A stretch of DNA of 64,000 nt from a virus (taxonomy: Duplodnaviria > Heunggongvirae > Uroviricota > Caudoviricetes), in IMG/VR virus record IMGVR_UViG_3300047202_000060. One strand, 5' to 3'. A model generated the notes under the pieces. The model was not told the origin of the DNA. It saw only the letters and a list, made by a program, of their open reading frames with translations, and made no database searches. Positions 488-51,683 of this stretch are shown piece by piece (the first letter of the stretch is position 1; every line of letters starts with the position of its first letter). The position numbers were made by a program, and so were the translations under genes.

Positions 488-522
488 TATATAAGGGTTT
501 GCCTAGAACGAACGTCCTCAGT
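488..522 (-). promoter_or_regulatory. class I conserved inter-operon element (TATA-like box plus conserved arm), degenerate copy
   Basis: ctatataagggtttgcctagaacgaacgtcctcag; matches consensus cgtccTTATAAAcgtttgcctagaacaccCATGCTCA. Confidence 0.35.
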
Positions 523-538
523 TAATCAACTGATTAAA
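523..538. repeat. 16-bp palindrome TTAATCAACTGATTAA
   Basis: perfect inverted repeat TTAATCA/TGATTAA with 2-nt spacer; one of 17 copies. Confidence 0.6.
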
Positions 539-586
539 ATTCCGCTAAAAACGGGGGTCGCGCCACAACTTTACTGTTCGGAAAAC

Positions 587-823
587 TTAAGTGAAATCTA
601 CTTTAACTTTGTTCGGGTTCCAGAAGGGACAAATACAACCACAAAAGAATAAACGCCCCCCGTTTCCTTTAATTGGGTTCACTATGTCAGATATATGCCC
701 TATGCCTTTAAGATGTTCTGGGTCATCTAGGTTAGGAGATGACTTTGGTTCTGTGCATTTAAAGTGTAACTTTCCAATGTTCTGTCTGTTGCCACAGTTG
801 AAACAACCTTTCTCTTGCGTCAT
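587..823 (-). CDS. small Cys-rich protein with KVKVDFT junction tail
   Basis: ends in junction cassette; CxxC pairs; antisense ORF 591..827 judged spurious. Confidence 0.45.
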   Translation of the reverse strand: MTQEKGCFNCGNRQNIGKLHFKCTEPKSSPNLDDPEHLKGIGHISDIVNPIKGNGGRLFFCGCICPFWNPNKVKVDFT

Positions 824-1281
824 GTGAAGAGCACCTTTTCCTTCCTATTTAAATGTCGTTCTGTCCATTCGTCACATTCACGGTCTATTTGCCGAACGTA
901 GAATATTTCTCCCTTCTCTTTCCAATTCAAGTGAATTTCACCTTTTCTTTTGCGTTAGGGAATCTCTGAGCCTTACAGTCATTATGAAGTCCGTTCGGTA
1001 TGTGAAGAGAAATTAAGCAAAGTTTTCGTGTTCCTATGTCGAAGCTGTGAGGACATTCAGCTTTATCAATACAGCTAGGCAATTTTTGAACTTGTGCTTT
1101 CGTGATTATTGTTATGCTTTCAACCCCTCTCTAAATTGTCCGTGTGCGAACGGTTGACCGTGATGCTCTAGGTTAGGCAGACTTGAATAAACACGCCTAA
1201 GTTTGCGGACGTTCAACGGCAAACCCCCGTAACTTTCCGCTTTGCGAGTTTACGCCGAACCTGTGAGAGTTTTCGCATCTT

Positions 1282-1297
1282 TTAATCATCTGATTAA
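1282..1297. repeat. 16-bp palindrome TTAATCATCTGATTAA
   Basis: inverted repeat copy. Confidence 0.55.
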
Positions 1298-1310
1298 TTG
1301 ATACGTCCCC

Positions 1311-1347
1311 GTCCCTTATAAATCTTTGCCACGAAAGACCGTTCTCG
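1311..1347 (-). promoter_or_regulatory. class I element copy overlapping 3' end of ORF 1316..1564
   Basis: gtcccttataaatctttgccacgaaagaccgttctcg; encodes the C-terminal VFRGKDL-stop of that ORF. Confidence 0.35.
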
Positions 1348-1564
1348 AAATACCGTTTTGTATCGTACAACTCACAAGTTTAAGCCCATATTCAGCTTCT
1401 AATTGCCTAGCCCTCTTCATTACGCCGTCCTTATAGGTTTTCACGCCTAGAATGAGCAGACAGTCTTTCATCCATCCCTCATAAACTATTAAGTTTTCCC
1501 CCTCGATTTTAGTCCCGAATCCTATACGCTCAAGTTTGCGCGCCAGCTTTGCCAAATCCGTCAT
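1316..1564 (-). CDS. hypothetical protein
   Basis: 82-aa ORF, start overlaps stop of upstream gene (ATGA). Confidence 0.5.
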   Translation of the reverse strand: MTDLAKLARKLERIGFGTKIEGENLIVYEGWMKDCLLILGVKTYKDGVMKRARQLEAEYGLKLVSCTIQNGISRTVFRGKDL

Positions 1565-1791
1565 GTAAACGCCACCTTTTCTTCTAATATCCGATTAGCC
1601 CAAGAGTTAAACTCTCTATGCCACATTTCGTCTGAAATTAACTGTGGATTTTCTTTCCAATGTGGAAAAACTTTATGATGTTGTTTTTGCCACTTTTCAG
1701 CGTGTTTTCCGCATAAAAAGATGAGAGGATTAGCAGAAAATCTTTCACCTTCATTATTACAGAAAAAACATTTTGTAAAAGTGTTAATCAT
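1561..1791 (-). CDS. small Zn-binding protein, EKVAFT tail
   Basis: CFFCNN...LCGKH cysteine pairs; junction cassette at 3' end. Confidence 0.55.
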   Translation of the reverse strand: MINTFTKCFFCNNEGERFSANPLIFLCGKHAEKWQKQHHKVFPHWKENPQLISDEMWHREFNSWANRILEEKVAFT

Positions 1792-2006
1792 GTAAAATCA
1801 ACCTTCTCAGGCGTTGTGTATTTCACCTTTCGAATTATGTCCGCATGGGTAAAATATTTCATACATTCTTTTTTTGCCACACACACGGTAAAAACGTCTG
1901 GGACTGTTGAAACTGATTCAATTTTTAGTATTGTGCCTACGGGAACGTAAGGGTTATCTGATTTAAGTAACCTAACGTAATCGCCAGCTTTTAGCGTTTG
2001 ATTCAA
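1788..2006 (-). CDS. hypothetical protein, TTG start, EKVDFT tail
   Basis: TTGA overlap with upstream stop; junction cassette at both ends. Confidence 0.55.
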   Translation of the reverse strand: MNQTLKAGDYVRLLKSDNPYVPVGTILKIESVSTVPDVFTVCVAKKECMKYFTHADIIRKVKYTTPEKVDFT

Positions 2007-2314
2007 GTGAAATCAACCTTTTCGGGTTTTACTTTTGTTTTCCAATTCGGGTGAGCCTTTAAGAAGTCAAAAACAGAAGCGCACCATCTAGGCAAATTTT
2101 CTGCAAATACACACGGAATTAACTTATCTCTGTTCTCTCTGGGGCTAATCGGGAGTTTCCTATAATCTTCCCATTTTGGAACACATTTTTTGACTCGTTT
2201 GCAATGCAAACAACAGAGGGTATTTGAATGAGAACACATCTTCGTGTCCGTAGGTTCATTATCGAAGAATCCGCTATTGCATGGTTTGATAAATTTCGGC
2301 TCTTTTTCAGTCAT
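2003..2314 (-). CDS. Cys-rich hypothetical protein, EKVDFT tail
   Basis: multiple C/H pairs; junction cassettes at 2003 and 2311. Confidence 0.55.
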   Translation of the reverse strand: MTEKEPKFIKPCNSGFFDNEPTDTKMCSHSNTLCCLHCKRVKKCVPKWEDYRKLPISPRENRDKLIPCVFAENLPRWCASVFDFLKAHPNWKTKVKPEKVDFT

Positions 2315-2867: not shown

Positions 2868-3356
2868 TCATAGGTTTTCGATTAATTCTTTTGCTTTCTC
2901 TTTGTCTTTCATTCGTGCAAAAAAGTGAATTGTTCTATGGCATTTCCAGCAAAGAGGAACGAAATCCTTTATATGTTTGAAGGTGTAATATGGGTGTTCA
3001 ACGTGTGGTTTGCCGTGTATTTCGTGATATTCAATAGTGTGGGTTCTTCCAAATAAATTGCCCTCTTCGTTACACAAAACGCAAGTTTTTCCCAAAATTT
3101 CTACAACCATAATTCGATATTTTTCCCTTCTACCTTTGAGATATTGAAGGTTTGCTTTTCGGTATTCTGGGTTATTTGCCATTTTTTCAAGTCGGGTTTG
3201 AGTCAATTTCTTATAACGGTCTTTGTGTTTTTGGTAATAGTCTTTTCGGTAGTCTAACATTCTTTGTTTATTCTTTTGGTAATAGTCTGCCGAATATTTC
3301 CTCATATATTTGGGGTCTTTGCGTATTCCTGTTTTCGTCATTTTGATGAACCTCAT
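2868..3356 (-). CDS. HNH endonuclease family A with YYQKHK basic repeats
   Basis: VLCNEEG...YHEIHGKPH...DFVPLCWKCHRTIH; repeat N-terminus RKDYYQKHKDRYKK. Confidence 0.65.
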   Translation of the reverse strand: MRFIKMTKTGIRKDPKYMRKYSADYYQKNKQRMLDYRKDYYQKHKDRYKKLTQTRLEKMANNPEYRKANLQYLKGRREKYRIMVVEILGKTCVLCNEEGNLFGRTHTIEYHEIHGKPHVEHPYYTFKHIKDFVPLCWKCHRTIHFFARMKDKEKAKELIENL

Positions 3357-4099: not shown

Positions 4100-4115
4100 T
4101 TAATCATATGATTAA
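4100..4115. repeat. 16-bp palindrome TTAATCATATGATTAA
   Basis: inverted repeat copy flanking class I element. Confidence 0.55.
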
Positions 4116-4119
4116 CCGA

Positions 4120-4152
4120 CTTATAAAGTTTTCCTAAGAAACTCTATGCTCA
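4120..4152 (-). promoter_or_regulatory. class I element copy overlapping 3' end of HNH gene
   Basis: cttataaagttttcctaagaaactctatgctca; encodes NEHRVS-stop of HNH 4134..4814. Confidence 0.4.
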
Positions 4153-4814
4153 TTTAGTTCATTAATCATTTGATTAACTAATTTGAATATTTCTTCCTTC
4201 TTCTTATTGCCCAAGTTCAAAAGATAATGAGTAACATTATGACATCTACAGCATAGAGGTATAAAATCTTCTAAATGCCTCATAATGTAAGCGTAAGTGT
4301 AAGTATGAAGTTTTCCATGAATCTCATGGTAATGAATTATTCTTTTTGAATTACCACAAATCGAACAAATTTTTCCCAATTTTATTTGAACAATATTTTT
4401 CTGTTCTGAATGGTGTTCTCTTTGATATTTTTCTATTCTTTCTTTGTTTTTTCGATTATATTCTTTCTCGTATTCTTTATGTTCCAGATGCCACATTCTA
4501 CTTCTTTCCTTAGCCTTTTCTCTATGTACTTCTCGATATTGTTTAGCCCATTTATTTATTTGGTTTTTGTGTTGTTCATAATATTCTTTTTTTTGTTGTT
4601 TTACTTCTGGGAGTTGTCGGCGTTCTTTCTCACGGTTAAGAATTTTCTCACGATTTTTCTCATAATATCCTTTGCTTCTATTTCTTTCTTGTTCCAGATG
4701 TTCAAGACGATATTGTTTGGCGTATTCTTTATGTTGTTCCTTATGGGTTTGATTATATTGTTTACCATATTGTTTCATATATTGTTTTTCTTGCGTTGAA
4801 TCCTTATACGGCAT
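4134..4814 (-). CDS. HNH endonuclease family A with long K/Y/H-rich repeat N-terminus
   Basis: ICSICG...YHEIHGKLH...DFIPLCCRCHNVTH; start moved from 4844 to the Met 34 nt downstream of TTATAAA box at about 4849. Confidence 0.6.
   Translation of the reverse strand: MPYKDSTQEKQYMKQYGKQYNQTHKEQHKEYAKQYRLEHLEQERNRSKGYYEKNREKILNREKERRQLPEVKQQKKEYYEQHKNQINKWAKQYREVHREKAKERSRMWHLEHKEYEKEYNRKNKERIEKYQREHHSEQKNIVQIKLGKICSICGNSKRIIHYHEIHGKLHTYTYAYIMRHLEDFIPLCCRCHNVTHYLLNLGNKKKEEIFKLVNQMINELNEHRVS
4162..4177. repeat. 16-bp palindrome TTAATCATTTGATTAA (inside HNH 3' coding region, encodes NQMIN)
   Basis: inverted repeat copy. Confidence 0.5.
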
Positions 4815-4846
4815 TCGACTCACCACTAATATAGAACAACACACTC

Positions 4847-4870
4847 ACTTATAAACCTTTCGGTTTGGCT
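4847..4870 (-). promoter_or_regulatory. TATA/BRE-like promoter (cacTTATAAAcctttcggtttgg variant)
   Basis: same variant recurs at 11264 and 15588 upstream of HNH-B genes. Confidence 0.4.
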
Positions 4871-5061: not shown

Positions 5062-5108
5062 TGGGTTATCCTTCTTGTTTAATTACTATAATTACTATAT
5101 CGCCGACC

Positions 5109-5141
5109 TATATAAAGTTTTGCCCAGAACTACCATGTTCA
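5109..5141 (-). promoter_or_regulatory. class I element copy
   Basis: tatataaagttttgcccagaactaccatgttca, directly after stop of 5143..5436. Confidence 0.4.
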
Positions 5142-6737: not shown

Positions 6738-6763
6738 AGTATTTAAAGGTTATGGTTTGAACC
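6738..6763 (-). promoter_or_regulatory. class II promoter element (aaccataaccTTTAAATA in gene orientation)
   Basis: gagtatttaaaggttatggtttgaacc; GGGTGAT SD 6 nt before ATG at 6701. Confidence 0.4.
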
Positions 6764-7820: not shown

Positions 7821-7852
7821 TTTTATTACCTATCTGAGTATAACGTCCGCGT

Positions 7853-7890
7853 CCTTAATAAACCTTTGCACAGAAAGTACGTGTTCATTC
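7853..7890 (-). promoter_or_regulatory. class I element copy (TTAATAAA variant)
   Basis: ccttaataaacctttgcacagaaagtacgtgttcattc; box about 34 nt upstream of ATG 7820. Confidence 0.4.
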
Positions 7891-7893: not shown

Positions 7894-7909
7894 TTAATCA
7901 TCTGATTAA
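7894..7909. repeat. 16-bp palindrome TTAATCATCTGATTAA
   Basis: inverted repeat copy. Confidence 0.55.
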
Positions 7910-7958: not shown

Positions 7959-8393
7959 TTAGATAGTCTTTTGTTTTACAAATTCTTGAATTTCGTTTAA
8001 TTCCATTTTACAAATCTGATGAAGAAAGTGAAAACCTTTATGGCAAATATGGCAGAGAGGAATAAAATCCTCTTTGTGGTTTGCATAATACGATAAGCTA
8101 ATCGGGTGTTTTTTCCAATGAATTTCGTGAAGCATTAACCCCTGTTTCGAATCACATGATAAACACTTATCTGGAAATAATGCTTTTACCTTTTCACGAA
8201 ATAGCTTTTTCCTTTTGGATTCTTTTTCACGATTTTTTGAATAGTATGTTTGGTTTCTAAGTTTTCCAGCTTCGTGATTTTCTACGTAGTTGTTTCTGTG
8301 TCTTGCGTTTATTTTTTCTTTGTTTCGTGCGTGATAATCTCTTTGGGCTTTCCTTTGTTTTTCTTTGTCTTTATATGGCAATTCCATCACCAC
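7959..8393 (-). CDS. HNH endonuclease family A
   Basis: CLSCDS...LHEIHWKKH...DFIPLCHICHKGFH; basic N-terminus. Confidence 0.65.
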   Translation of the reverse strand: MVMELPYKDKEKQRKAQRDYHARNKEKINARHRNNYVENHEAGKLRNQTYYSKNREKESKRKKLFREKVKALFPDKCLSCDSKQGLMLHEIHWKKHPISLSYYANHKEDFIPLCHICHKGFHFLHQICKMELNEIQEFVKQKTI

Positions 8394-8417: not shown

Positions 8418-8439
8418 TATTTAAAGGTTATGGTTTGGC
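8418..8439 (-). promoter_or_regulatory. class II promoter element
   Basis: ctatttaaaggttatggtttggc, 25 nt upstream of ATG 8393. Confidence 0.4.
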
Positions 8440-10205
8440 TATTTCTGGGTTTCCACGTTAAGGTAAACTTGAAGGAAGGCTTTTGGTAACTCAGAAATTT
8501 CCTTAATACGGGTTCGTGAAACCTTTAAGTTACGAACTTTGTTTGCAAAAGTTTCCACATTATCAGCATCACAGAATCCAATAAAGCATACTTCAATTCC
8601 ACTACGGGTGTACTGTTCGATTAAGTTCTCTGCTTTTTGCTCGTCATCACCGTTAAAACAGAAATCGCTTGCTATTACAAGAATCTTTCTGCGTTCGCCC
8701 TTTATGGAATTGAACATTTTTAAATGTGCCTCAAGCAAAACGGAAACTTCAGTTCCCCCAGCATTTACGGAAATCGCCCCGATTCTTGCTCGTGTGTTTT
8801 CGAATGTTTCGAAATGTGACTTTACTCGTTGACTATCAGCACCGAACGCGGAAATTGAGAAACCATAATCATCAACGTAATGACCGAAAACTTCGTTAAG
8901 AATTGTCGTTATTTTCTGTGCTTGGTTTCTATCAACTGAACCCGAATAATCGAATAGAAAAGCTATAGCTACTTGTTCTTTTTCGAACTTCGTGGTCGTT
9001 CGCAAATACACATTACGAACGGTTCCGCGAAAAGAGTTAGTGTAGATTCGTGGAACTATCGGTGACATCATTTTGCCCCTTTTCTGGAATATCTCCCGTG
9101 ACACTCGTGGTTTCATTCTAGTTTTCAAAAGGTTAAGTAATTCTGTAATTTCTGGTTTACACTCATCGAGTAACTTTGAGTATGCTTCAAAGTCAGGCTC
9201 AGGACTAGGTATTTCGATTCCCGTGCCTTCGCCAGCACCCGAACCTTTCTGTAAATCTTCAAGATGTTTCTTTTTGTCCTCTTCTTGTTGTTCTTCCTTC
9301 TCTGCTTGTTCCAGAAGTTGTTTCAATTTATCCGAAATTTTGCCCTTTATGTTTCCCCCTCTACGAGAAACAACGTATTCTTTTGTGGTATAGTCAGCTT
9401 TAAGGTGTTTAGCTACTAAATCATAAATTGCTTGGCATGAACGAATGATGTCCAACTTAACGCGCTGATATTTGGTTCCCTCTAGGATTTTCAGGGCTTC
9501 CTCTGTGTCCTTTCGAGTATCGGGGCTAAGTTTGTCCCACAATTCTGTGCATTTAGCTTCATATAGACCTTCATTGCACAAAATTGCAACCATGTAAACC
9601 CCTTCTTGTTGTCCAGCTTGAATTGGCATGGTTATATTTGTGTTTTCTCCCAAGCTTTCACCTTTCGGGAGAATTGAAGATGTCCGTATCTGAGGCTTTT
9701 CTATCGTGTTGTCAATCATATCCTTCAATATCAAGTTCGCCAAAAGAAGCCTTTTTCCGACATCGAACCTATATCTGAGGATAATAAAGTGATTAATGCG
9801 TTTATCTTCGACCAAATTGCAAACTTCATGAGCCAGCTTATAGTAACCACGCTGGCGTTTGATTTTCGTTGTCCAATTGTTGAAAAACTCCCAATTTGGC
9901 TTTGTAAGGATTAAATGACCGCATTCGTGAGCCATATCTCCGTCCAGAATCTTTCTGAACAATCTCGGAGAAGTTTTCACGAAATCGGGATAACTTTGCA
10001 AACTTAGAGAAATTTCAAAATTTTCCATGTTAAAAGCAGAAGTTGGTTGTTCTGGAATATACTTGACACGAATCCGTTTGTCCTTTGTTATGGCAATGGC
10101 TAAGTTTCGCATCTCATCGAGAATTTTTGAGAATGCCCCATTATCTTTCTGTGGTTTCTTCTTTTGGTAACTCATTCTCTCACGCCACAATAAGAAGCTA
10201 ACCAC
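8439..10205 (-). CDS. vWA-domain protein (CobT/NorD-like) with N-terminal HExxH motif
   Basis: MIDAS motif DYSGSVD in AIAFLFDYSGSVD; MAHECGHLIL HExxH; 588 aa; follows the AAA+ gene. Confidence 0.65.
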   Translation of the reverse strand: MVSFLLWRERMSYQKKKPQKDNGAFSKILDEMRNLAIAITKDKRIRVKYIPEQPTSAFNMENFEISLSLQSYPDFVKTSPRLFRKILDGDMAHECGHLILTKPNWEFFNNWTTKIKRQRGYYKLAHEVCNLVEDKRINHFIILRYRFDVGKRLLLANLILKDMIDNTIEKPQIRTSSILPKGESLGENTNITMPIQAGQQEGVYMVAILCNEGLYEAKCTELWDKLSPDTRKDTEEALKILEGTKYQRVKLDIIRSCQAIYDLVAKHLKADYTTKEYVVSRRGGNIKGKISDKLKQLLEQAEKEEQQEEDKKKHLEDLQKGSGAGEGTGIEIPSPEPDFEAYSKLLDECKPEITELLNLLKTRMKPRVSREIFQKRGKMMSPIVPRIYTNSFRGTVRNVYLRTTTKFEKEQVAIAFLFDYSGSVDRNQAQKITTILNEVFGHYVDDYGFSISAFGADSQRVKSHFETFENTRARIGAISVNAGGTEVSVLLEAHLKMFNSIKGERRKILVIASDFCFNGDDEQKAENLIEQYTRSGIEVCFIGFCDADNVETFANKVRNLKVSRTRIKEISELPKAFLQVYLNVETQK

Positions 10206-10206
10206 A

Positions 10207-10240
10207 CTTATAAACCTTTCTTAAGAAACAACATACTCAT
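10207..10240 (-). promoter_or_regulatory. class I element copy
   Basis: cttataaacctttcttaagaaacaacatactcat upstream of vWA gene start 10205. Confidence 0.4.
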
Positions 10241-10245
10241 TCTGC

Positions 10246-10261
10246 TTAATCAACTGATTAA
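10246..10261. repeat. 16-bp palindrome TTAATCAACTGATTAA
   Basis: inverted repeat copy. Confidence 0.6.
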
Positions 10262-10312
10262 AAAAACGCCAAAAACGATGGATGTTAACGGGCGTGAAGG
10301 AGCGTGAAGTCA

Positions 10313-10328
10313 TTAATCAACTGATTAA
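10313..10328. repeat. 16-bp palindrome TTAATCAACTGATTAA
   Basis: inverted repeat copy. Confidence 0.6.
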
Positions 10329-10693
10329 ATGAATTAGCCTCATATCTGGTTCCGTTTGGCAAAAGCATCCATTGTGAAAGACGTGCTGGAAAAGTCAGTA
10401 CGTTAATTCTAGGGAAAAACTTATAAGCAACCACGCCTATATATTCACAAAGCTTCACAAGAGGTTTGAAAATGTTTCCGTTTGACACAATAAGTTTCAT
10501 TTTGGCTCTCATCGTACTTGCAAAGGTCGCTAGAACTTTCCGTCACCCTATAGGTTTACCACCAAAGTCAATTAATTATGAGCCAGAAGATTAAACTAAA
10601 AATACCCCATACATACGCCCATTTTTTTTCTAAATTTTGATTTTGGACAGCATGATGTTCTCTTTCCTTTCCCCTAGCCTTTTCCCTGATTAT

Positions 10694-10709
10694 TTAATCA
10701 CTTGATTAA
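10694..10709. repeat. 16-bp palindrome TTAATCACTTGATTAA
   Basis: inverted repeat copy. Confidence 0.55.
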
Positions 10710-10803
10710 AAAAGCTTCGACTTCAGACTTCAGTCCCCATCGCATTCGCCCTAGCATCAAGAACGTTTTTTTCCCTAGCCTATTTACCTGTTAAATGGAA
10801 GTG

Positions 10804-11263: not shown

Positions 11264-11287
11264 ACTTATAAATCTTTCGGTTTGTAG
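11264..11287 (-). promoter_or_regulatory. TATA/BRE-like promoter
   Basis: aacttataaatctttcggtttgtagg, box 30 nt upstream of ATG 11235. Confidence 0.4.
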
Positions 11288-14646: not shown

Positions 14647-14670
14647 CTAGTTACACTAGCTACATCGTGC

Positions 14671-14704
14671 TATTAAAACCTTTGCCTAGAACAACCATGC
14701 TTAG
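14671..14704 (-). promoter_or_regulatory. class I element copy
   Basis: tattaaaacctttgcctagaacaaccatgcttag; contains stop of 14701..14970. Confidence 0.4.
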
Positions 14705-14970: not shown

Positions 14971-15008
14971 TAGTAAATCACTTTGTTGTTAATAGAATAA
15001 CGCCGACT

Positions 15009-15043
15009 CTTATAAATCTTTAGGTAAAATCACCATGCTCGAT
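15009..15043 (-). promoter_or_regulatory. class I element copy encoding C-terminus of HNH-B gene
   Basis: cttataaatctttaggtaaaatcaccatgctcgat encodes IEHGDFT-stop. Confidence 0.4.
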
Positions 15044-16534: not shown

Positions 16535-16573
16535 CCGTCCCTTATAAACGTTTGCCTAGAACACCCATGCTCG
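16535..16573 (-). promoter_or_regulatory. class I element, near-consensus copy
   Basis: ccgtcccttataaacgtttgcctagaacacccatgctcg. Confidence 0.45.
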
Positions 16574-16584: not shown

Positions 16585-16600
16585 TTAAACAGTTGATTAA
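16585..16600. repeat. imperfect 16-bp palindrome TTAAACAGTTGATTAA
   Basis: one mismatch in left arm. Confidence 0.4.
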
Positions 16601-21145: not shown

Positions 21146-21306
21146 TTCTTCTTAACGGGACAATCTCGATATATCTCTGGAAGACAGCACAAGAGAGAGA
21201 AACATCTTTCGTATTTCTTTGGTATTTCCATAAAGATGTAGATGTCACCGACACTTATAAAGGTTTGTTAAGAATAAACATACACAAAAAAAAGAAAATG
21301 GGAAAA

Positions 21307-22203: not shown

Positions 22204-22237
22204 TTATTCTCGACCTTACTGAAAGTAAGGTATCAGC

Positions 22238-22274
22238 GTTCCTTATAAAGTTTTGCCTAGAAAGAACATACTCA
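22238..22274 (-). promoter_or_regulatory. class I element copy
   Basis: cgttccttataaagttttgcctagaaagaacatactca. Confidence 0.4.
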
Positions 22275-22328: not shown

Positions 22329-22344
22329 TTAATCAACTGATTAA
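22329..22344. repeat. 16-bp palindrome TTAATCAACTGATTAA
   Basis: inverted repeat copy. Confidence 0.6.
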
Positions 22345-23912: not shown

Positions 23913-23945
23913 TTTCTCAACCTTACTAGAATACTAGAGCAATCA

Positions 23946-23980
23946 CCTTAATAAACCTTTGCTTAGAAACATCATGCTCA
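23946..23980 (-). promoter_or_regulatory. class I element copy
   Basis: ccttaataaacctttgcttagaaacatcatgctca, about 37 nt upstream of 23912. Confidence 0.4.
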
Positions 23981-23990: not shown

Positions 23991-24006
23991 TTAATCACCA
24001 GATTAA
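23991..24006. repeat. imperfect palindrome TTAATCACCAGATTAA
   Basis: degenerate inverted repeat. Confidence 0.3.
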
Positions 24007-26510: not shown

Positions 26511-26549
26511 CCGTCCTATTTAAACCTTGTGGTAGAACGTTCATACTCA
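26511..26549 (-). promoter_or_regulatory. class I element copy (TGGTAGAAC variant)
   Basis: ccgtcctatttaaaccttgtggtagaacgttcatactcaa, box 29 nt upstream of ATG 26487. Confidence 0.4.
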
Positions 26550-26610: not shown

Positions 26611-26626
26611 TTAATCACTTGATTAA
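26611..26626. repeat. 16-bp palindrome TTAATCACTTGATTAA
   Basis: inverted repeat copy at 3' end of KaiC-like gene. Confidence 0.55.
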
Positions 26627-29115: not shown

Positions 29116-29745
29116 TTATTTGTTACTTATAAACTTTGCCCCAGAACTATCGTGCTCGATTAACCACTCGAACGCTTTATCGTTTATCTCGAACATACCA
29201 CGACCAGACCAGATATTATGACGAATTGAATTATGAAGTTTTTCGGGAATATAGACTACACACTCAAAGTCAATATGGTGTCCGTGGGAACCTTCGAATG
29301 GTTCATTAAGAAAATCGTGCCCTAGACCACGGCGTTTATACTTTTGTTTTCTAGTTTGTTTTCCTCTCCATTCTGGATGGTTTTTACGCCAATTTGTCGT
29401 CCTTTGGTCACACTCTTCTTTATGAGCGTTATAATATTGGGTTTTAGATTTTTTATCATGAAGTTTTAATTCTTCTGGGGTTAATCTTTTTAGTGGATGT
29501 GGACGATAACTCTTTTTATGATTTCTCTTATTAGATTCTCTAACCTTTTCGGGATTATTTTTTCGCCAATTTCTCAGCATAATCCTTTTTTGTTCTGGAT
29601 GATTCCTCTTCCATTTTATACTCCGTTGTTTGCATTCTTCTTTGTGAGTTTCATAATAGTGTTTTGTCCATTGCCTTTTATGTTGTTTTAGTTCTTCTTC
29701 TGTAAAGATTTTTCTAACAAATTGACCTTTAGAATTTCTACCCAT
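29116..29745 (-). CDS. HNH endonuclease family B with basic repeats
   Basis: GLGHDFLNEPF..HGHHIDFECVVYIPEKLHNSIRHN..AFEWLIEHDSSGAKFISNK; C-terminus encoded by class I element. Confidence 0.65.
   Translation of the reverse strand: MGRNSKGQFVRKIFTEEELKQHKRQWTKHYYETHKEECKQRSIKWKRNHPEQKRIMLRNWRKNNPEKVRESNKRNHKKSYRPHPLKRLTPEELKLHDKKSKTQYYNAHKEECDQRTTNWRKNHPEWRGKQTRKQKYKRRGLGHDFLNEPFEGSHGHHIDFECVVYIPEKLHNSIRHNIWSGRGMFEINDKAFEWLIEHDSSGAKFISNK
29126..29158 (-). promoter_or_regulatory. class I element copy inside HNH-B 3' end
   Basis: cttataaactttgccccagaactatcgtgctcg. Confidence 0.4.
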
Positions 29746-30545: not shown

Positions 30546-30583
30546 CGTCCTATATAAACGTTTACTAAGAAACACCATGCTCA
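30546..30583 (-). promoter_or_regulatory. class I element, near-consensus
   Basis: cgtcctatataaacgtttactaagaaacaccatgctca; provides TGA stop of 30581..30898 and box 34 nt upstream of 30516. Confidence 0.45.
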
Positions 30584-31435: not shown

Positions 31436-31958
31436 CTTTGTAAGAAGAATAGTTATCGTCCCTTATAAACGTTGTCCCAGAACCATCGTGTTCGTTTTCT
31501 GGGTGATGAAGTTCTCTATGACATCTGCAACAGAGAAGTTGTATTTTACCATCTAAAACCAATTTAAGAAAAACTTTTGTCATATATAAATTACAATCAT
31601 CATGTTTTTCCTTAGTTTTTGGGTCAAGATGGTGAAATTCGAATACTGCCAAACAACCAATATATCCACATTTTTGACATTTGCCACCGAGTAATTTTAT
31701 CAACTCTTTTTTTCGTTTGTGTTTTCTCCCGATAACATATTCTCTAACCCATTTTTTGTTTCTTTTCTGCCAACATCTTTGTGATTCACGAACTTTCTCC
31801 AAATTGTTTAAACGATATTTTCTTCTATTTTGTGCAACTTTTTCTTTATTATTTTCATTCCACTTCTTTGACCTACAATTTTTAGAACAATATTGTTGTA
31901 TTCTATGATAATATGGATTCTGAATAAATTCTGTGCCACACACTTTACATTTTGGCAT
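31404..31958 (-). CDS. HNH endonuclease family A with N-terminal Zn ribbon and basic repeats
   Basis: MPKCKVCG...CSKNC; LLGGKCQKCGY...FHHLDP...LLCCRCHRELH; NEHDGSGTTFIRDD encoded by class I element. Confidence 0.6.
   Translation of the reverse strand: MPKCKVCGTEFIQNPYYHRIQQYCSKNCRSKKWNENNKEKVAQNRRKYRLNNLEKVRESQRCWQKRNKKWVREYVIGRKHKRKKELIKLLGGKCQKCGYIGCLAVFEFHHLDPKTKEKHDDCNLYMTKVFLKLVLDGKIQLLCCRCHRELHHPENEHDGSGTTFIRDDNYSSYKDDKYGYSEYS
31457..31494 (-). promoter_or_regulatory. class I element copy embedded in-frame in HNH ORF
   Basis: cgtcccttataaacgttgtcccagaaccatcgtgttcg. Confidence 0.4.
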
Positions 31959-32667: not shown

Positions 32668-32696
32668 ATCATTCACTACCTAGAAGTATAGCTCCC

Positions 32697-32731
32697 CCCT
32701 ATATAAAGTTTGCCCCAGAAACACCACGCCC
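32697..32731 (-). promoter_or_regulatory. class I element copy preceded by poly-G
   Basis: cctatataaagtttgccccagaaacaccacgccc. Confidence 0.4.
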
Positions 32732-32797
32732 AAAACCCTATGGGTATCGCTGGTTTGCATGGACTTTCCCATCACCTCACCCATACTTTGCTCTTTT

Positions 32798-32813
32798 TTA
32801 ATCAGTTGATTAA
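32798..32813. repeat. 16-bp palindrome TTAATCAGTTGATTAA
   Basis: inverted repeat copy. Confidence 0.55.
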
Positions 32814-38017: not shown

Positions 38018-38046
38018 TTTACATCTGGGAATACTAAGGCGAACCA

Positions 38047-38081
38047 CCTATATAAACTTTGCGCTAGAACCACCTTACTCA
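38047..38081 (-). promoter_or_regulatory. class I element copy
   Basis: cctatataaactttgcgctagaaccaccttactca. Confidence 0.4.
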
Positions 38082-38181: not shown

Positions 38182-38197
38182 TTAATCATCTGATTAA
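38182..38197. repeat. 16-bp palindrome TTAATCATCTGATTAA
   Basis: inverted repeat copy. Confidence 0.55.
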
Positions 38198-41718: not shown

Positions 41719-41745
41719 GAGTATTTAAGTCTTACGGTTTAAGCC
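41719..41745 (-). promoter_or_regulatory. class II promoter element
   Basis: gagtatttaagtcttacggtttaagcc, box 34 nt upstream of 41687. Confidence 0.4.
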
Positions 41746-42338: not shown

Positions 42339-42359
42339 TACATATTAGATAGGTATAAA

Positions 42360-42394
42360 CCTTAATAAACTTTGTGGTAGAAAGCCCATATTCA
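42360..42394 (-). promoter_or_regulatory. class I element copy
   Basis: ccttaataaactttgtggtagaaagcccatattca; supplies TGA stop of 42392..42658. Confidence 0.4.
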
Positions 42395-45278: not shown

Positions 45279-45307
45279 ATTAAATCACTATTAAGATAAT
45301 AACTTAC

Positions 45308-45343
45308 CTCTATTTAAACTTTGCGTAAGAAAGACTATGCTCA
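45308..45343 (-). promoter_or_regulatory. class I element copy abutting junction cassette
   Basis: cctctatttaaactttgcgtaagaaagactatgctca, box 32 nt upstream of 45278. Confidence 0.4.
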
Positions 45344-45516
45344 AGTAAACTGCACCTTCACTTTAGCATTTTTAGGTCCGAAATAATATTTCTCAAACAT
45401 TATCTTTACACACCTGTCCATCTTCAATCTTTTACCCTCTCCAAATGAATGAATTACAGCTTCGACATATCTCGTATGCCATTTTATCTTTTTCATAAGC
45501 ATAGCAATCGATTCTG

Positions 45517-45837
45517 TCATGTAAATTGCACCTTCTCTCTATCATGCATAAACCTGTAATATTCATGAGCAAGCCATACAAACCATCTCATACAAGCTCT
45601 ACAATTGCTACCGCATTTTGTAGTAGGCGGTGCAACGCCATTATACGATTTTGTTTGCCCCATCGTCCCGCCATTCTCGGAGTCCATATCCTTTCTTGGG
45701 TTTAATGAAGACAAGTGGACCATGTGTAAAAGACATTTCTCTAGCTTCCCGCTGTACTCTTGGTATAAATTGAATTTTATCTTGTACACTCCATTCTGTT
45801 TTTTGGTTGGTTTGAATATCTTTCTTGAGAAGACCAT
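45517..45837 (-). CDS. hypothetical Cys-containing protein, EKVQFT tail; N-terminal extent uncertain
   Basis: overlaps 45641..46387 by about 197 nt in another frame; internal Met at about 45663. Confidence 0.4.
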   Translation of the reverse strand: MVFSRKIFKPTKKQNGVYKIKFNLYQEYSGKLEKCLLHMVHLSSLNPRKDMDSENGGTMGQTKSYNGVAPPTTKCGSNCRACMRWFVWLAHEYYRFMHDREKVQFT

Positions 45838-47676: not shown

Positions 47677-47840
47677 TTAAACCACCCAAACTCCATCTCT
47701 ATATATTCGAATTTGCCTTGCGTAATTAATTCCTAGAAAACTCTTCCATAAAAGCATCACAGTTACATTACCAACGAAATGAGTTTCGGAATGTTTCTTT
47801 GTTAGAGTCATATTTTTAATCACTTATTACTATATTAGTT

Positions 47841-47877
47841 GTCCTATTTAAAGTTTGCGATAGAAAGAACGTGTTCA
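47841..47877 (-). promoter_or_regulatory. class I element copy
   Basis: gtcctatttaaagtttgcgatagaaagaacgtgttca. Confidence 0.4.
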
Positions 47878-47898: not shown

Positions 47899-47914
47899 TT
47901 AATCAACTGATTAA
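47899..47914. repeat. 16-bp palindrome TTAATCAACTGATTAA
   Basis: inverted repeat copy. Confidence 0.6.
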
Positions 47915-49796: not shown

Positions 49797-49917
49797 GCAT
49801 TGTATCTCTCTTCTAAGAATTCCTGAATATATTCAGATACTTTCTTATATTCTTCATTAGATAGCTTTTTCCTCAATATGGTGTCTATCTCAGTATCTAT
49901 TTCTGTATCTGGTGACA

Positions 49918-50166
49918 TTACTCTTCAACCTCTATTTCTTTGGTACTAAGTTTAATGTATTTGCTAAATGCTTCATGTATATCTCTGATTGCGTCTTGCA
50001 TTATCCACAGATTGTAGGAATCGGCTAATCTCTTTGCCGCCCATCTTCTCAAACTCTCATAATCTCGTATTACCTTTGTCTTATTATAGCAACTAGAACA
50101 TCTACCATTTTGAAGTACCTCTTTGTAATGAAGTTCACATCCGCAATGTGGACATTTATCTGCCAT
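49918..50166 (-). CDS. Zn-ribbon protein
   Basis: CPHCGCE...CSSCYNK. Confidence 0.45.
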   Translation of the reverse strand: MADKCPHCGCELHYKEVLQNGRCSSCYNKTKVIRDYESLRRWAAKRLADSYNLWIMQDAIRDIHEAFSKYIKLSTKEIEVEE

Positions 50167-50186
50167 CTTTATAACCTCTGTAACTA

Positions 50187-50480
50187 TTATACAACCGTCC
50201 TATTAGCGGCAACATCGACTACTTTTCGACCCCATTGAAGTCTATTCCACAAACGTTCGTTTAAATAACCTAATCCAAAACAGAAACCTTCAATTAATAC
50301 GGCTATCCCCAATGAATTTAAAGTATTCTGGATTATTCCTACATTTGGAGCTATTTGGCTAAGGATAGAATCGAAAACTATCAAATCGAAAGATACTTCC
50401 AGTACCTTAGCCGTAACTCCCTTTAGTAAAGTTCGCTTGTGGGTTTCGCAGACCTTATGTTCGTGTTGGCATTCGGACAT
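50187..50480 (-). CDS. hypothetical protein
   Basis: 97-aa ORF. Confidence 0.4.
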   Translation of the reverse strand: MSECQHEHKVCETHKRTLLKGVTAKVLEVSFDLIVFDSILSQIAPNVGIIQNTLNSLGIAVLIEGFCFGLGYLNERLWNRLQWGRKVVDVAANRTVV

Positions 50481-50832
50481 TCTGTTGCCTCTTTTTCCAT
50501 GCTTTAAATGGTCGTTTACTAGCTACGTCTTTCATTATTTCTGAATCCGTTTTTGGTTTAACTTTGCATATTATAACTTCTCCAACTTTGAACCTTTGCC
50601 AATAATGCTCTGGGCATACGTAGAACTTGCCGTAACCTTGTCGGCGGTCAGGTCTATAATCTCGTCTGCAACGCATACATTTACGAAGACCTTTCTTTTT
50701 CTCGGTCAAGATGTAAACCTTTGAATCTCCACTCTTACAGAATGGACATGGTGTTAATCCCAAGTCAGTCAAGTGGCTTTTAAGTCGCAACATATGATGA
50801 CAATTAGGTTCTGGACATGGTGGACATCCCAT
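50455..50832 (-). CDS. multi-Zn-finger protein
   Basis: CPPCPEPNCHH...CPFCKSGD...CMRCRRDY. Confidence 0.45.
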   Translation of the reverse strand: MGCPPCPEPNCHHMLRLKSHLTDLGLTPCPFCKSGDSKVYILTEKKKGLRKCMRCRRDYRPDRRQGYGKFYVCPEHYWQRFKVGEVIICKVKPKTDSEIMKDVASKRPFKAWKKRQQNVRMPTRT

Positions 50833-51004
50833 ATCTATTCACTCCTCTTTGCTTTTTTTGCTGTTTCAGTATCGCACTTAAAGTAGCATTGAATAACAGT
50901 TTCGTCAACGAACTTCTTAATTTCATCTTCTATTGCCCATCTTTCAGGTTGATTTGCTTGTATTCTTTTAGCTATTCGTTCTGCTAGTTTGTCCCACATA
51001 GTTA

Positions 51005-51274
51005 TCACTTTGTTGCTCTATTAGCGGCTGTTAAAGTACCATGTTGTTTGCCATTCCCGTTTTTGACTGTGCAATAAAGACATTCCTCAATAACAAATAA
51101 CTTCCCGTCAATATGTTGTGTGTACTTCATACGTTTATGCCGTCCACAAGTAAGACATGGTTCTTCTGCATCGACTATAATGATTCGTCCACCCATATCC
51201 CTAATTTTCTGTTTTTCGTTTTCGGTTATGTTTTCAAGAGGAATTCGCATACAACTTCTGATTTGTTTAATCAT
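51005..51274 (-). CDS. Zn-ribbon protein
   Basis: CLTCGRH...CLYCTVKN. Confidence 0.45.
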   Translation of the reverse strand: MIKQIRSCMRIPLENITENEKQKIRDMGGRIIIVDAEEPCLTCGRHKRMKYTQHIDGKLFVIEECLYCTVKNGNGKQHGTLTAANRATK

Positions 51275-51370
51275 TTTTCTTCCTCTTTTCTGAATTTATA
51301 TATTTTATACGCAAGATACGTTGGAAATCCAAGTAACATTCCAAATGTCCAAATTACCATAATTATCATT

Positions 51371-51616
51371 TCAATCACCAAGTCTTAGAAGTTCTTCTTT
51401 TGGTTCCTCAGTTTTTTTCTTTGATTGTGCAACCTTCATTGAAATGAAATAGAGCACTTGTCTTCCAATTTCATGTCTTTCACGTTCAGGCAAATTATCC
51501 CAATCATGAAGAACATCTTTAGGAATCCAAATAGATACAAGAACATTTTCGCTTGGAGTTGGGTCTTCAAGTGGCTTTAAAAGCCCAAATCCAACATATT
51601 CTTTTTCATGTGTCAT
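51371..51616 (-). CDS. hypothetical protein
   Basis: ATG 34 nt downstream of TATATAAA box. Confidence 0.45.
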   Translation of the reverse strand: MTHEKEYVGFGLLKPLEDPTPSENVLVSIWIPKDVLHDWDNLPERERHEIGRQVLYFISMKVAQSKKKTEEPKEELLRLGD

Positions 51617-51646
51617 TTTTTCTACCTTGAATATAACTATTCATTC

Positions 51647-51683
51647 GTCCTATATAAACTTTGTGTAAGAAACTCCATACTCA
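51647..51683 (-). promoter_or_regulatory. class I element, near-consensus
   Basis: cgtcctatataaactttgtgtaagaaactccatactca. Confidence 0.45.

What the first reader, a model, noticed from the sequence alone, without database searches (positions are those of the whole stretch)
488..51683. About 22 copies of a roughly 35-nt TATA-containing inter-operon element (class I)
In gene orientation the element reads TGAGCATGGTGTTCTAGGCAAACGTTTATAAGGGACGGCG. It sits so that the TTTATAA box is 25-35 nt upstream of the first ATG of a transcription unit. Examples are 16515, 26487, 30516, 31435, 38017, 45278 and 51616. Box-to-ATG spacing, an A-rich BRE-like tract before the box, and leaderless or near-leaderless first genes fit archaeal promoters. 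The roughly 25 conserved nucleotides downstream of the box go beyond a basal promoter. They could be a shared operator, terminator, or recognition site.
Basis: partly seen in the sequence, partly recalled or inferred. Interest (0 to 1): 0.75.

Follow-up and report, generated by a model that had tools for sequence, protein, structure and literature searches.

The report
Repeated promoter cassette of archaeal virus
A 38-base sequence repeated 23 times in this uncultivated, probably archaeal, virus genome is a shared promoter cassette: an archaeal TATA box plus extra conserved blocks that probably bind a regulator, which is a known way for viruses to switch on a set of genes together.

Summary
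Twenty-three copies of a 38-nt element lie on the minus (coding) strand between 483 and 51683, plus one weak plus-strand copy at 10395-10432. They score 34-51 bits on a matrix built from those same 23 copies; shuffled sequence reaches 10.7 at most. Consensus: TGAGYATGGTnnTTCTnnGnAAAnGTTTATAWRGGnCG.

It is an archaeal-type promoter cassette: an A-rich BRE and a TATA box, with an ATG 39-46 nt after the box in 19 of 22 copies. A Shine-Dalgarno-like tetramer is present when the distance is 37 nt or more (16/17) and absent when it is 34 nt or less (0/5). That places initiation about 26-32 nt after the box.

GGnCG follows the box. The element recurs in at least three related viruses whose ATPases are only 53-61% identical. 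There is no RNA fold, Rfam match or sigma-70 or terminator signal.

The most likely mechanism is a co-regulated promoter class whose TGAGYATGG box binds a viral or host regulator. The closest known cases are the SIRV2-type early-gene regulatory consensus and the halovirus HF2 intergenic repeats. I rate it a new member of a known kind, of moderate interest.

The parts
483..520 (-). Class I promoter cassette, orphan copy. No minus-strand ORF of 25 aa or more follows. It faces the plus-strand HNH-like gene 138-473.
   Evidence: PWM 41.9 bits; ORFs and sequence
1310..1347 (-). Class I promoter cassette. ATG at 1289, 33 nt after the first T of the TATA box, no SD. A palindrome lies between the TATA box and the ATG.
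4115..4152 (-). Class I promoter cassette. ATG at 4086 (230-aa ORF). Flanked by palindromes on both sides. The upstream HNH gene 4134-4844 stops inside it.
5104..5141 (-). Class I promoter cassette. ATG at 5061.
7850..7887 (-). Class I promoter cassette. ATG at 7820 (MoxR-like AAA ATPase, 298 aa).
10202..10239 (-). Class I promoter cassette. ATG at 10175 (VWA-domain protein).
10395..10432 (+). Weak, divergent plus-strand copy (CTTATAAG box). It precedes a 40-aa hydrophobic ORF whose ATG is near 10473, followed by a T8 run.
   Evidence: PWM 16.4 bits; sequence
14666..14703 (-). Class I promoter cassette. ATG at 14637.
15004..15041 (-). Class I promoter cassette. ATG at 14970. The 3' end of the upstream gene 15020-15574 overlaps it.
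16536..16573 (-). Class I promoter cassette, the best match to the consensus. ATG at 16515.
   Evidence: PWM 51.4 bits
19579..19616 (-). Class I promoter cassette. ATG at 19545. Its TGA is the stop codon of the upstream ORF.
21249..21286 (-). Class I promoter cassette. ATG at 21231 (38 aa). The gene call on the near-identical contig L001 starts at the equivalent of 21145.
22237..22274 (-). Class I promoter cassette. ATG at 22203 (Band_7 / HflK-like protein, 298 aa).
23943..23980 (-). Class I promoter cassette. ATG at 23912 (479-aa InlB B-repeat protein).
26512..26549 (-). Class I promoter cassette downstream of the KaiC-like ATPase gene. ATG at 26487.
29121..29158 (-). Class I promoter cassette. 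ATG at 29102. It overlaps the 3' end of gene 29116-29745.
30546..30583 (-). Class I promoter cassette. ATG at 30516. Its TGA is the stop codon of the upstream ORF.
31457..31494 (-). Class I promoter cassette. ATG at 31435.
32695..32732 (-). Class I promoter cassette. ATG at 32667.
38044..38081 (-). Class I promoter cassette. ATG at 38017. It heads a run of about 17 tiny genes (38047 down to 34136) joined by overlapping stop and start codons.
42357..42394 (-). Class I promoter cassette. ATG at 42329.
45306..45343 (-). Class I promoter cassette. ATG at 45278 (235 aa).
47840..47877 (-). Class I promoter cassette. ATG at 47811.
51646..51683 (-). Class I promoter cassette. ATG at 51616.
522..537 (.). 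16-bp palindrome TTAATCANNTGATTAA directly upstream of the class I copy at 483. Candidate operator for a dimeric regulator.
   Evidence: 19 sites against 1.4 expected
1282..1297 (.). Palindrome between the TATA box and the ATG of the class I copy at 1310.
4100..4115 (.). Palindrome between the TATA box and the ATG of the class I copy at 4115.
4162..4177 (.). Palindrome upstream of the class I copy at 4115.
7894..7909 (.). Palindrome upstream of the class I copy at 7850.
10246..10261 (.). Palindrome upstream of the class I copy at 10202.
10313..10328 (.). Palindrome between the divergent copies at 10202 (-) and 10395 (+).
16585..16600 (.). Palindrome (1 mismatch) upstream of the class I copy at 16536.
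22329..22344 (.). Palindrome upstream of the class I copy at 22237.
23991..24006 (.). Palindrome (1 mismatch) upstream of the class I copy at 23943.
26611..26626 (.). Palindrome upstream of the class I copy at 26512.
32798..32813 (.). Palindrome upstream of the class I copy at 32695.
38182..38197 (.). Palindrome upstream of the class I copy at 38044.
47899..47914 (.). Palindrome upstream of the class I copy at 47840.

Best explanation
Each copy is a composite archaeal-type promoter that heads a transcription unit of this large, uncultivated and probably archaeal virus.

Reading in gene orientation, the blocks are:
1. a conserved upstream box TGAGYATGG(T), which ends 16 nt before the TATA box;
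2. a TTCT block;
3. an A-rich BRE (GnAAAnG), the site for transcription factor B;
4. the TATA box TTTATAWR, the site for TBP;
5. a conserved GGnCG;
6. an A/T-rich stretch.

Host RNA polymerase would start about 26-32 nt after the first T of the box. That gives mRNAs that are leaderless or carry a leader of about 8-16 nt with a GTGA/AGGT ribosome-binding site.

The upstream box lies beyond the reach of TBP and TFB. It is therefore most likely the binding site of a sequence-specific regulator, virus-encoded or host. That regulator would make these 23 units one co-regulated (temporal) class, distinct from a second promoter class in the same genome (AAACCRTAAC-TTTAAATA). The 16-bp palindrome TTAATCANNTGATTAA found next to about half of the copies would be a second operator-type input.

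Shown here: the copies, their orientation, their geometry relative to start codons, their conservation in related viruses, and the absence of RNA structure. Inferred: the archaeal host, the start site, and the existence and identity of the factor that binds the box.
For: 1. There are 23 same-strand copies scoring 34-51 bits on the matrix built from them, against 10.7 bits at most in shuffles. The box GAG[CT]ATGG occurs 5 times on the gene strand, every time at the fixed offset from a TATA box, and never on the other strand.

2. The core matches archaeal promoters. TTTA is present in 22-23 of 23 copies, and A at -3 and -4 from the box in 23 of 23. This is the feature that PMC11065993 describes as the strong TFB-binding BRE.

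3. Geometry. An ATG lies 39-46 nt after the first T of the box in 19 of 22 copies. A Shine-Dalgarno-like tetramer at -16 to -6 is present in 16 of 17 copies at 37 nt or more and in 0 of 5 copies at 34 nt or less, against a background of 18%. This is what a start site about 26-32 nt after the box would produce.

4. Selection rather than recent copying. The same cassette occurs in L040 (7 strong and 4 weaker copies), L016 (2) and L049 (3), with weaker versions in L017, L020 and L042. The ATPases of these viruses are only 53-63% identical. Copies are as alike between genomes (0.656) as within the window (0.645), and the flanks are unrelated (0.32-0.33).

5. A second class, AACCRTAASNTTTAWA, has 11 matches on the minus strand against 0.15 expected. 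It lacks the box. Both classes also occur together in L040.

6. No sign of bacterial signals. Sigma-70-like sites number 57 against 53.7 +/- 8 in shuffles, and terminator-like sites 16 against 11.6 +/- 4.1.

7. Archaeal affinity. The ATPase profile's best solved relatives are Pyrococcus PH0284 and Sulfolobus SSO2452, and its best NCBIfam model is thermo_KaiC_2. The RNA ligase's best hit among viruses is BK063668, a Caudoviricetes record with host given as Methanofastidiosa. That virus uses a similar core, AAC(C/G)RAAAGCTTTATATA, with its own conserved upstream inverted repeat.

8. Precedents. The early genes of SIRV2 and other archaeal viruses share a consensus regulatory sequence around a near-identical BRE and TATA box (PMC11065993). 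Halovirus HF2 class I and II intergenic repeats are experimentally proven promoters with conserved flanking motifs (PMC8707807).
Against: - There is no transcript 5'-end data.
- The host was not identified: two scans of 185,579 species genomes found no relative.
- No recognisable DNA-binding regulator turned up among the 50 window proteins scanned against Pfam.
- The box is asymmetric, so it does not look like a classical dimer operator.
- In HF2, mutating the analogous upstream alpha motif did not change basal promoter activity (PMC8707807). A conserved upstream block therefore need not affect initiation as such.
- The region around the predicted forward start site is only weakly conserved.
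- The hits in relatives were found with the window's own matrix, so the agreement of conservation profiles (r = 0.84) is partly circular.
Confidence: 0.6

Rival explanations
1. Self-sufficient strong promoter. The upstream box, the TTCT block and GGnCG are extended contacts or DNA-shape features that strengthen assembly of the host TBP/TFB/TFE/RNA polymerase complex. On this reading there is no dedicated regulator, and the copies are alike simply because all are selected to be maximally strong.
For: The spacing to the TATA box is strictly gapless in all 35 aligned copies. The BRE has the strong-promoter A at -3. HF2 repeats are active in cells that lack viral genes (PMC8707807). No regulator gene was found.
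Against: By established structural knowledge (not tested here), TFB-BRE contacts reach only about 7-9 bp upstream of the TATA box, whereas the box lies 16-25 bp upstream. The same genome has a second promoter class with a similar core and the same geometry but no box. Related viruses keep the core but carry different upstream sequences.
Confidence: 0.15
2. Bidirectional promoter. The nearly symmetric TATA box also fires backwards, with GGnCG (read as CGnCC) acting as the reverse BRE. The conserved 'upstream box' would then be the initiator region of an antisense transcript that runs into the preceding gene.
For: On the opposite strand the box (CCATRCTCA) lies about 25-35 nt from the TATA box, where a start site would fall (read directly from the sequences). 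In HF2 the start-proximal gamma motif is the conserved, essential block, and some repeats fire in both directions (PMC8707807). The forward start region is weakly conserved.
Against: CGnCC is not the A/purine-rich BRE type, whereas the forward BRE is. No ORF, and no conservation beyond about 3 nt, lies past the box. The forward geometry with start codons and SD sites is fully explained without this reading.
Confidence: 0.1
3. Recombination or homing substrate. The repeats persist as shared homology, or as target sites of the many HNH endonuclease genes in this genome, and so promote shuffling of small-gene cassettes. This would resemble the promoter-stem-loop repeats of T4-type phages (recalled from memory, not checked here).
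For: About ten HNH-like genes are present. Three of them (4134-4844, 15020-15574, 29116-29745) end inside a class I element. Gene content downstream of the copies differs between relatives.
Against: Most copies have no HNH neighbour. There is no genome-specific homogenisation of copies. Conservation is position-specific, which is the pattern of a binding site, not block-wise. This would be a side effect of the repeats rather than an alternative to promoter function.
Confidence: 0.05
4. Bacterial phage promoter, for a phage-encoded RNA polymerase or a modified sigma factor, rather than an archaeal one.
For: Long conserved promoters are typical of phage-encoded polymerases (general knowledge). 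The host is unproven.
Against: The second hexamer never ends in the invariant T of a -10 box (TATAAG or TATATA), and nothing resembling -35 lies 17 nt upstream (read directly from the sequence). Sigma-70-like sites are not enriched. No RNA polymerase gene was found among the 50 window proteins scanned against Pfam. The protein affinities are archaeal.
Confidence: 0.05
5. Terminator, 3'-UTR element or structured RNA belonging to the upstream transcription unit.
For: The element often starts at or near the stop codon of the upstream gene. Its TGA (TAA in one copy) is that stop codon in 5 of 23 copies.
Against: RNAalifold predicts 0 pairs on 32 copies. Single-copy fold z-scores run from -0.4 to +1.8. 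There is no Rfam match. T5+ runs within 120 nt upstream occur at 7 of 23 copies, against about 5 runs expected. The element itself contains no T5 run.
Confidence: 0.03

Closest known systems
Consensus regulatory sequence of early (anti-defence) genes in archaeal viruses, for example SIRV2, SIFV2 and SMV2 (Nat Commun 2024, PMC11065993)
   Same: Many genes in one viral genome share an extended motif around a near-identical BRE and TATA box. The downstream genes are mostly small and hypothetical. The core is similar between viruses while the flanks are virus-specific. Inverted repeats nearby are read as repressor sites.
   Different: The lineage is different: Sulfolobales viruses there, against an uncultivated low-GC virus of about 140 kb from anoxic sediments here. 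There is no sequence similarity in the flanks and no Aca8-like wHTH gene was found. Early timing is not known here. The copy number is high (23 in 52 kb), and some copies head long operons and larger genes (MoxR, VWA, Band_7).
[quoted passage not shown]
   Same: Two classes of repeated intergenic elements in a tailed archaeal virus, each carrying a promoter. Both have a block architecture (upstream alpha, TATA-containing beta, start-proximal gamma), are conserved in related viruses and are proposed to bind viral temporal regulators.
   Different: There is no sequence relationship: the HF2 beta and gamma motifs are not enriched in the window and do not coincide with the elements. The HF2 repeats are longer (58 bp) and far fewer (7 and 2), and they were tested experimentally. 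Here the strongest extra conservation is upstream of the BRE rather than at the start site.
Repeated promoter of Caudoviricetes sp. vir521 (BK063668, host given as Methanofastidiosa)
   Same: It has a similar core, AAC(C/G)RAAAGCTTTATATA, a conserved block directly upstream of the BRE, and a related RNA ligase (31% identity).
   Different: Its upstream block is an inverted repeat (TACTATnnnnATAGTA), not TGAGYATGG. Its genes lie closer to the box. Only one window protein has a homologue there.
Extended early-promoter consensus of large virulent phages such as T4, and promoter-stem-loop repeats (from general knowledge, not checked here)
   Same: Dozens of near-identical strong promoters stand in front of small ORFan genes in a large viral genome.
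   Different: Those are bacterial sigma-70 promoters with -35, -10 and UP elements. That architecture was tested here and is absent.

Membership tests
Archaeal BRE/TATA core promoter | TATA box of the TTTAWAWR type on the coding strand | tested here: met
   TTTA in 22-23 of 23 copies, followed by T/A, A, W, R. All 23 copies are oriented with the genes.
Archaeal BRE/TATA core promoter | A/purine-rich BRE directly upstream of the box, with A at -3 | tested here: met
   A at -3 and -4 in 23 of 23 copies; G or C at -6/-7. The criterion is as described in PMC11065993.
Archaeal BRE/TATA core promoter | Geometry compatible with initiation about 25-30 nt after the box | tested here: met
   ATG at 39-46 nt in 19 of 22 copies. 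SD-like tetramer in 16 of 17 copies at 37 nt or more and 0 of 5 copies at 34 nt or less.
Archaeal BRE/TATA core promoter | Mapped transcription start, and dependence on TBP and TFB | not testable with these tools
   No RNA data or biochemistry is available.
Archaeal BRE/TATA core promoter | The host is an archaeon | tested here: inconclusive
   Indirect support only: archaeal-type KaiC/RadA-like ATPase and RNA ligase, and a best virus hit with host given as Methanofastidiosa. Genome scans found no host or provirus.
Archaeal-virus early-gene consensus regulatory sequence (PMC11065993) | Several genes of one genome share an extended motif around a near-identical BRE and TATA box | tested here: met
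   23 copies with 38 conserved nt.
Archaeal-virus early-gene consensus regulatory sequence (PMC11065993) | Downstream genes are small, hypothetical and poorly conserved | tested here: met
   Nine of the 10 first genes tested have no PHROG match, and the tenth matches only families of unknown function. Pfam is mostly empty. Exceptions are the MoxR, VWA, Band_7 and InlB-repeat genes.
Archaeal-virus early-gene consensus regulatory sequence (PMC11065993) | Immediate-early expression | not testable with these tools
   No infection time course exists for this virus.
Archaeal-virus early-gene consensus regulatory sequence (PMC11065993) | A cognate repressor (Aca-like) and its operator | tested here: inconclusive
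   A candidate operator is present: the palindrome TTAATCANNTGATTAA, with 19 sites against 1.4 expected, mostly next to class I copies. No wHTH or RHH gene was recognised among the 50 window proteins scanned against Pfam.
Halovirus HF2 intergenic repeats (sequence family) | HF2 beta (TCTTTAAGTC) and gamma (CGTCTNNTAGAG) motifs | tested here: not met
   14 matches against 9.0 expected and 2 against 1.7 expected, none inside a class I element. The resemblance is functional only.
Bacterial sigma-70 promoter | -35 and -10 hexamers with a 16-18 nt spacer | tested here: not met
   57 sites against 53.7 +/- 8 in shuffles. The element has no terminal T in a -10-like hexamer and no -35 (read directly from the sequence).
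Intrinsic terminator or structured RNA | Conserved hairpin, covariation, U-tract | tested here: not met
   0 consensus pairs; z-scores of -0.4 or higher; no Rfam match.

The most novel reading that the evidence does not exclude
The TGAGYATGG box, 16-25 bp upstream of the TATA box, is the recognition site of a virus-encoded transcription factor. That factor would recruit the host TBP/TFB/RNA polymerase to, or bar it from, 23 or more promoters at once. It would act as a sigma-factor-like promoter-class switch in an archaeal virus, with the class II promoters and the TTAATCANNTGATTAA palindrome providing the other stages of a temporal cascade.
Probability: 0.3. Interest if true: 0.6.

Novelty: new member of a known kind. 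Interest (0 to 1): 0.4.

Why it matters
Three practical consequences follow.

1. The element gives a ready-made transcription map of about 23 class I and about 12 class II units in 55 kb. The map belongs to a family of 90-140 kb viruses from anoxic sediments, peat, digesters and landfill leachate that has no cultured member and almost no annotatable genes.

2. By the logic of PMC11065993, genes behind a shared viral regulatory consensus are prime candidates for early or anti-defence functions. The cassette therefore marks which of the many ORFans to test first.

3. The strictly positioned box upstream of the BRE is a clean substrate for asking how transcription is activated or timed in archaea, where few activator sites are defined.

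It does not reveal a new kind of system.

Tried and rejected
- **Short TATA-centred pattern.** GTTTAWAWAGGRAC gave 9 hits against 6.3 expected, so the TATA part alone is not distinctive.
- **Scan of IMG/VR for the degenerate element.** No hits.
- **Known-phage DNA search** of 52-64 kb, and tblastn with the ATPase and the NTPase. No match.
- **Host search.** ATPase profile and epimerase against 185,579 species genomes: nothing confirmed.
- **RNA and bacterial signals.** Rfam gave none, tRNAs none, and tandem repeats were trivial. RNAalifold and single-copy folds showed no structure. Sigma-70 and terminator scans showed no enrichment.
- **Stop-codon idea.** The TGA of the box (TAA in one copy) is the upstream stop codon in only 5 of 23 copies, and ORFs starting at the internal ATG are short and out of register. 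Rejected.
- **Palindrome in the box.** GARC-N6-GTTC fails because the fourth pair is G in only 8 of 23 copies.
- **Shared CATGG box with relative L008.** The spacing differs by one base (15 against 16 nt), so homology is left open.
- **Search for the regulator.** Pfam on 50 proteins, PHROGs on 10 and NCBIfam on 10 gave only zinc ribbons and weak hits.
- **Presence/absence comparison.** Window proteins were compared between carriers and non-carriers of the element. It is uninformative because the loci are partial.
- **HF2 motifs.** Absent.

Full report
**Observation**

That is because the string differs by a one-base indel from the real sequence. The copy next to the cited coordinate 16515 reads ...ACGAGCATGGGTGTTCTAGGCAAACGTTTATAAGGGACGGCG... 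on the minus strand. The copies next to 26487 and 51616 are clear variants of it.

The repeat finder recovers a family of 20 copies of 41 nt. A weight matrix built from 23 copies scores them 34-51 bits. In 30 simple base-order shuffles of the window the best score was 10.7 bits, and no shuffle had more than one hit above 8. The 23 scores are training-set scores. The independent support is the gap to the shuffles, the single extra plus-strand hit and the hits in other genomes.

All 23 strong copies are on the minus strand, which carries nearly all ORFs. They lie between 483 and 51683. One weak copy (16.4 bits) is on the plus strand at 10395-10432, and there is none in 52-64 kb.

In gene orientation the consensus is T-G-A-G-Y-A-T-G-G-T-n-n-T-T-C-T-n-n-G-n-A-A-A-n-G-T-T-T-A-T-A-W-R-G-G-n-C-G. 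Mean pairwise identity is 0.65 inside the 38 nt and 0.32-0.33 in the flanks.

One correction is needed. The roughly 25 extra conserved bases lie upstream of the TATA box in gene orientation, not downstream.

**Context**

The window belongs to an uncultivated virus. Its KaiC-like ATPase (26623-27558) is on a 140.7-kb metagenome contig and on three shorter near-identical contigs. Homologues at 44-63% identity sit on contigs of 21-112 kb that are full of small same-strand genes.

There is no DNA match to 50,697 phage records, no tRNA gene and no Rfam family.

The affinities are archaeal:
- The ATPase profile's best solved relatives are Pyrococcus PH0284 and Sulfolobus SSO2452.
- Its best NCBIfam model is thermo_KaiC_2.
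- The RNA ligase matches TIGR01209.
- The ligase's best hit among virus records is Caudoviricetes sp. vir521, with host recorded as Methanofastidiosa: 31% identity over 86% of the query.

Two scans of 185,579 species genomes found no host or provirus. An archaeal host is therefore inferred, not shown.

**What the element is**

The core matches an archaeal promoter. TTTA is present in 22-23 of 23 copies, followed by T/A-A-W-R. A is present at -3 and -4 in all 23 copies, which is the BRE feature described as strongly TFB-binding in PMC11065993.

The geometry is tight. Nineteen of 22 copies have an ATG 39-46 nt after the first T of the box.

The best internal test concerns the ribosome-binding site. 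A Shine-Dalgarno-like tetramer (GTGA, AGGT, GGTG and similar) lies at -16 to -6 in 16 of 17 copies whose ATG is at least 37 nt from the box. It is present in none of the five copies at 30-34 nt. The background frequency is 18%. This is what initiation about 26-32 nt after the box would produce: short SD-bearing leaders in most units and leaderless mRNAs in a few.

Bacterial signals are not enriched. Sigma-70-like sites number 57 against 53.7 +/- 8 in shuffles, and terminator-like sites 16 against 11.6 +/- 4.1. The box itself also lacks the invariant final T of a -10 hexamer.

An RNA role is not supported:
- RNAalifold predicts no pair on 32 aligned copies.
- Single-copy fold z-scores run from -0.4 to +1.8.
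- T5+ runs within 120 nt upstream occur at 7 of 23 copies, against about 5 runs expected from the background rate.
- The TGA of the box (TAA in one copy) is the stop codon of the upstream gene in only 5 of 23 copies.

**A second class and a palindrome**

The same strand carries a second repeated promoter, AAACC(A/G)TAAC-C-TTTAAATA. It has 11 matches against 0.15 expected. It shares the box-to-ATG geometry but lacks the upstream box.

A 16-bp palindrome, TTAATCANNTGATTAA, has 19 sites against 1.4 expected. Most lie either within about 115 nt upstream of a class I copy or between its TATA box and ATG.

**Comparison with relatives**

The class I cassette is not private to this genome. It occurs in L040 (7 copies at 28-46 bits and 4 weaker), L016 (2 copies at 46-48 bits) and L049 (3 copies at 34-40 bits). 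Weaker versions occur in L017, L020 and L042. The ATPases of these viruses are only 53-63% identical to the window's. L040 also has class II.

Copies are as similar between genomes (0.656) as within the window (0.645). The similarity therefore reflects selection on a consensus, not recent duplication or gene conversion.

More distant relatives keep the core (AACCGYAAAGTTTAWATAG) but carry other upstream sequences:
- the palindrome directly abutting the BRE in L004 and L007;
- GCATGG-A-rich in L008;
- GGACG after the box in L026 and L037.

The vir521 genome has its own repeated TACTATnnnnATAGTAAC(C/G)RAAAGCTTTATATAC. The overall pattern is a conserved core with virus-specific flanks.

**Mechanism**

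I take each copy to be a promoter used by the host TBP, TFB and RNA polymerase. The TGAGYATGG box lies 16-25 bp upstream of the TATA box. By established structural knowledge, which I did not test here, that is beyond the reach of TFB-BRE contacts. Its spacing is gapless in 35 copies, and it never occurs away from a TATA box.

The most economical reading is a binding site for a sequence-specific regulator that defines a co-regulated, probably temporal, class. The palindrome would be a second operator-type input. My confidence in the promoter reading is about 0.85. For the regulator-site reading it is about 0.55.

The rival readings are:
- a self-sufficient strong promoter with extended contacts;
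- a bidirectional promoter in which the box is the initiator of an antisense RNA (it lies about 25-35 nt from the symmetric TATA box on the other strand);
- a recombination or homing substrate, since three HNH genes end inside a copy;
- a bacterial phage promoter;
- a terminator or RNA element.

**Comparison with what is known**

The two closest cases are the following.
- The consensus regulatory sequence shared by early or anti-defence genes of SIRV2 and other archaeal viruses (PMC11065993). It has the same logic, the same kind of downstream genes, virus-specific flanks and nearby inverted repeats.
- The class I and II intergenic repeats of halovirus HF2, which are proven promoters with conserved alpha, beta and gamma blocks that are retained in related viruses (PMC8707807).

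There is no sequence relationship to HF2, and no Aca8-like gene was recognised here. The element is a new member of a known kind, found in a lineage with no cultured representative.

**Limits**

There are no transcript data, no host and no regulator candidate. The window covers only 64 kb of a 140.7-kb contig. The hits in relatives were found with the window's own matrix.

Noticed in passing
window, minus strand; clusters at 587-2475, 11487-14096, 16650-17793, 19614-21145, 34136-38047 and 45341-45837: Stereotyped gene junction. Forty-one of 211 minus-strand ORFs of 40 aa or more end in K-V-x-F-T/S (mostly EKVxFT*), against 0.12 expected by chance. The DNA reads GAG AAG GTG NNN TTY ACW TGA, and in 39 of 41 the next gene's ATG, TTG or GTG overlaps the TGA stop. 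Lys is AAG in 37 of 41 (genome 30%) and Val is GTG in 22 of 41 (genome 13%), which points to a nucleotide-level Shine-Dalgarno constraint. The Phe wobble position is free (22 TTT, 19 TTC). Relative L004 has an analogous junction, AAGGTGATTCTAGTTTGA.
   Followed up: partly
window, minus strand: matches at 4850-4865, 6742-6757, 8420-8435, 11267-11282, 15591-15606, 29779-29794, 38717-38732, 41724-41739, 53518-53533, 54840-54855 and 55227-55242: Second promoter class, AAACC(A/G)TAAC-C-TTTAAATA, with 11 matches against 0.15 expected. It lacks the class I upstream box. It also occurs in L040, and appears as AACCGYAAAGTTTAWATAG in L004, L007 and L008. It is the only repeated promoter type in the 52-56 kb block.
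   Followed up: partly
window 522-537, 1282-1297, 4100-4115, 4162-4177, 7894-7909, 10246-10261, 10313-10328, 10694-10709, 22329-22344, 26611-26626, 32798-32813, 33370-33385, 38182-38197, 47899-47914, 56717-56732; L004 and L007: Perfect 16-bp palindrome TTAATCANNTGATTAA, with 19 sites at up to 2 mismatches against 1.4 expected. It is mostly associated with class I promoters. L004 has at least 13 copies in 21 kb, where it directly abuts the BRE, and copies also occur beside promoters in L007. It is probably the operator of a dimeric regulator conserved across the family.
   Followed up: partly
window 2868-3356, 4134-4844, 7959-8393, 24583-25029, 41223-41687 (minus strand); 138-473 (plus strand); second family 10804-11235, 15020-15574, 29116-29745, 52175-52954: About ten free-standing HNH-type endonuclease-like paralogues, with CxxC...HEIHGKPH...CxxCH...H motifs in the first family. 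Several sit behind class II promoters. Three end inside a class I element. The plus-strand copy at 138-473 converges on the orphan class I copy at 483-520. The pattern looks like homing-endonuclease cassettes.
   Followed up: partly
window 10205-10804: A 600-bp region with no minus-strand gene of 80 aa or more. It holds three palindromes, a divergent pair of class I promoters, and the only clear plus-strand unit apart from the HNH-like gene at 138-473: a 40-aa hydrophobic ORF (ATG near 10473) followed by a T8 run.
   Followed up: partly
window 52000-64000: Block of glycosylation and surface-modification genes: UDP-GlcNAc 2-epimerase, Anp1/GT2-like glycosyltransferases, a Kelch-repeat protein and a trypsin/HtrA-like peptidase. 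It contains no class I promoter, and two internal repeats at 58141-58541 and 58908-59311 are 71-75% identical.
   Followed up: no
L052 (BK063668, Caudoviricetes sp. vir521) 5881, 8535, 10674, 20845, 27695, 27833: A published virus genome with host recorded as Methanofastidiosa carries its own repeated promoter with an upstream inverted repeat, TACTATnnnnATAGTAAC(C/G)RAAAGCTTTATATAC. The ATG lies about 33-35 nt after the box.
   Followed up: no
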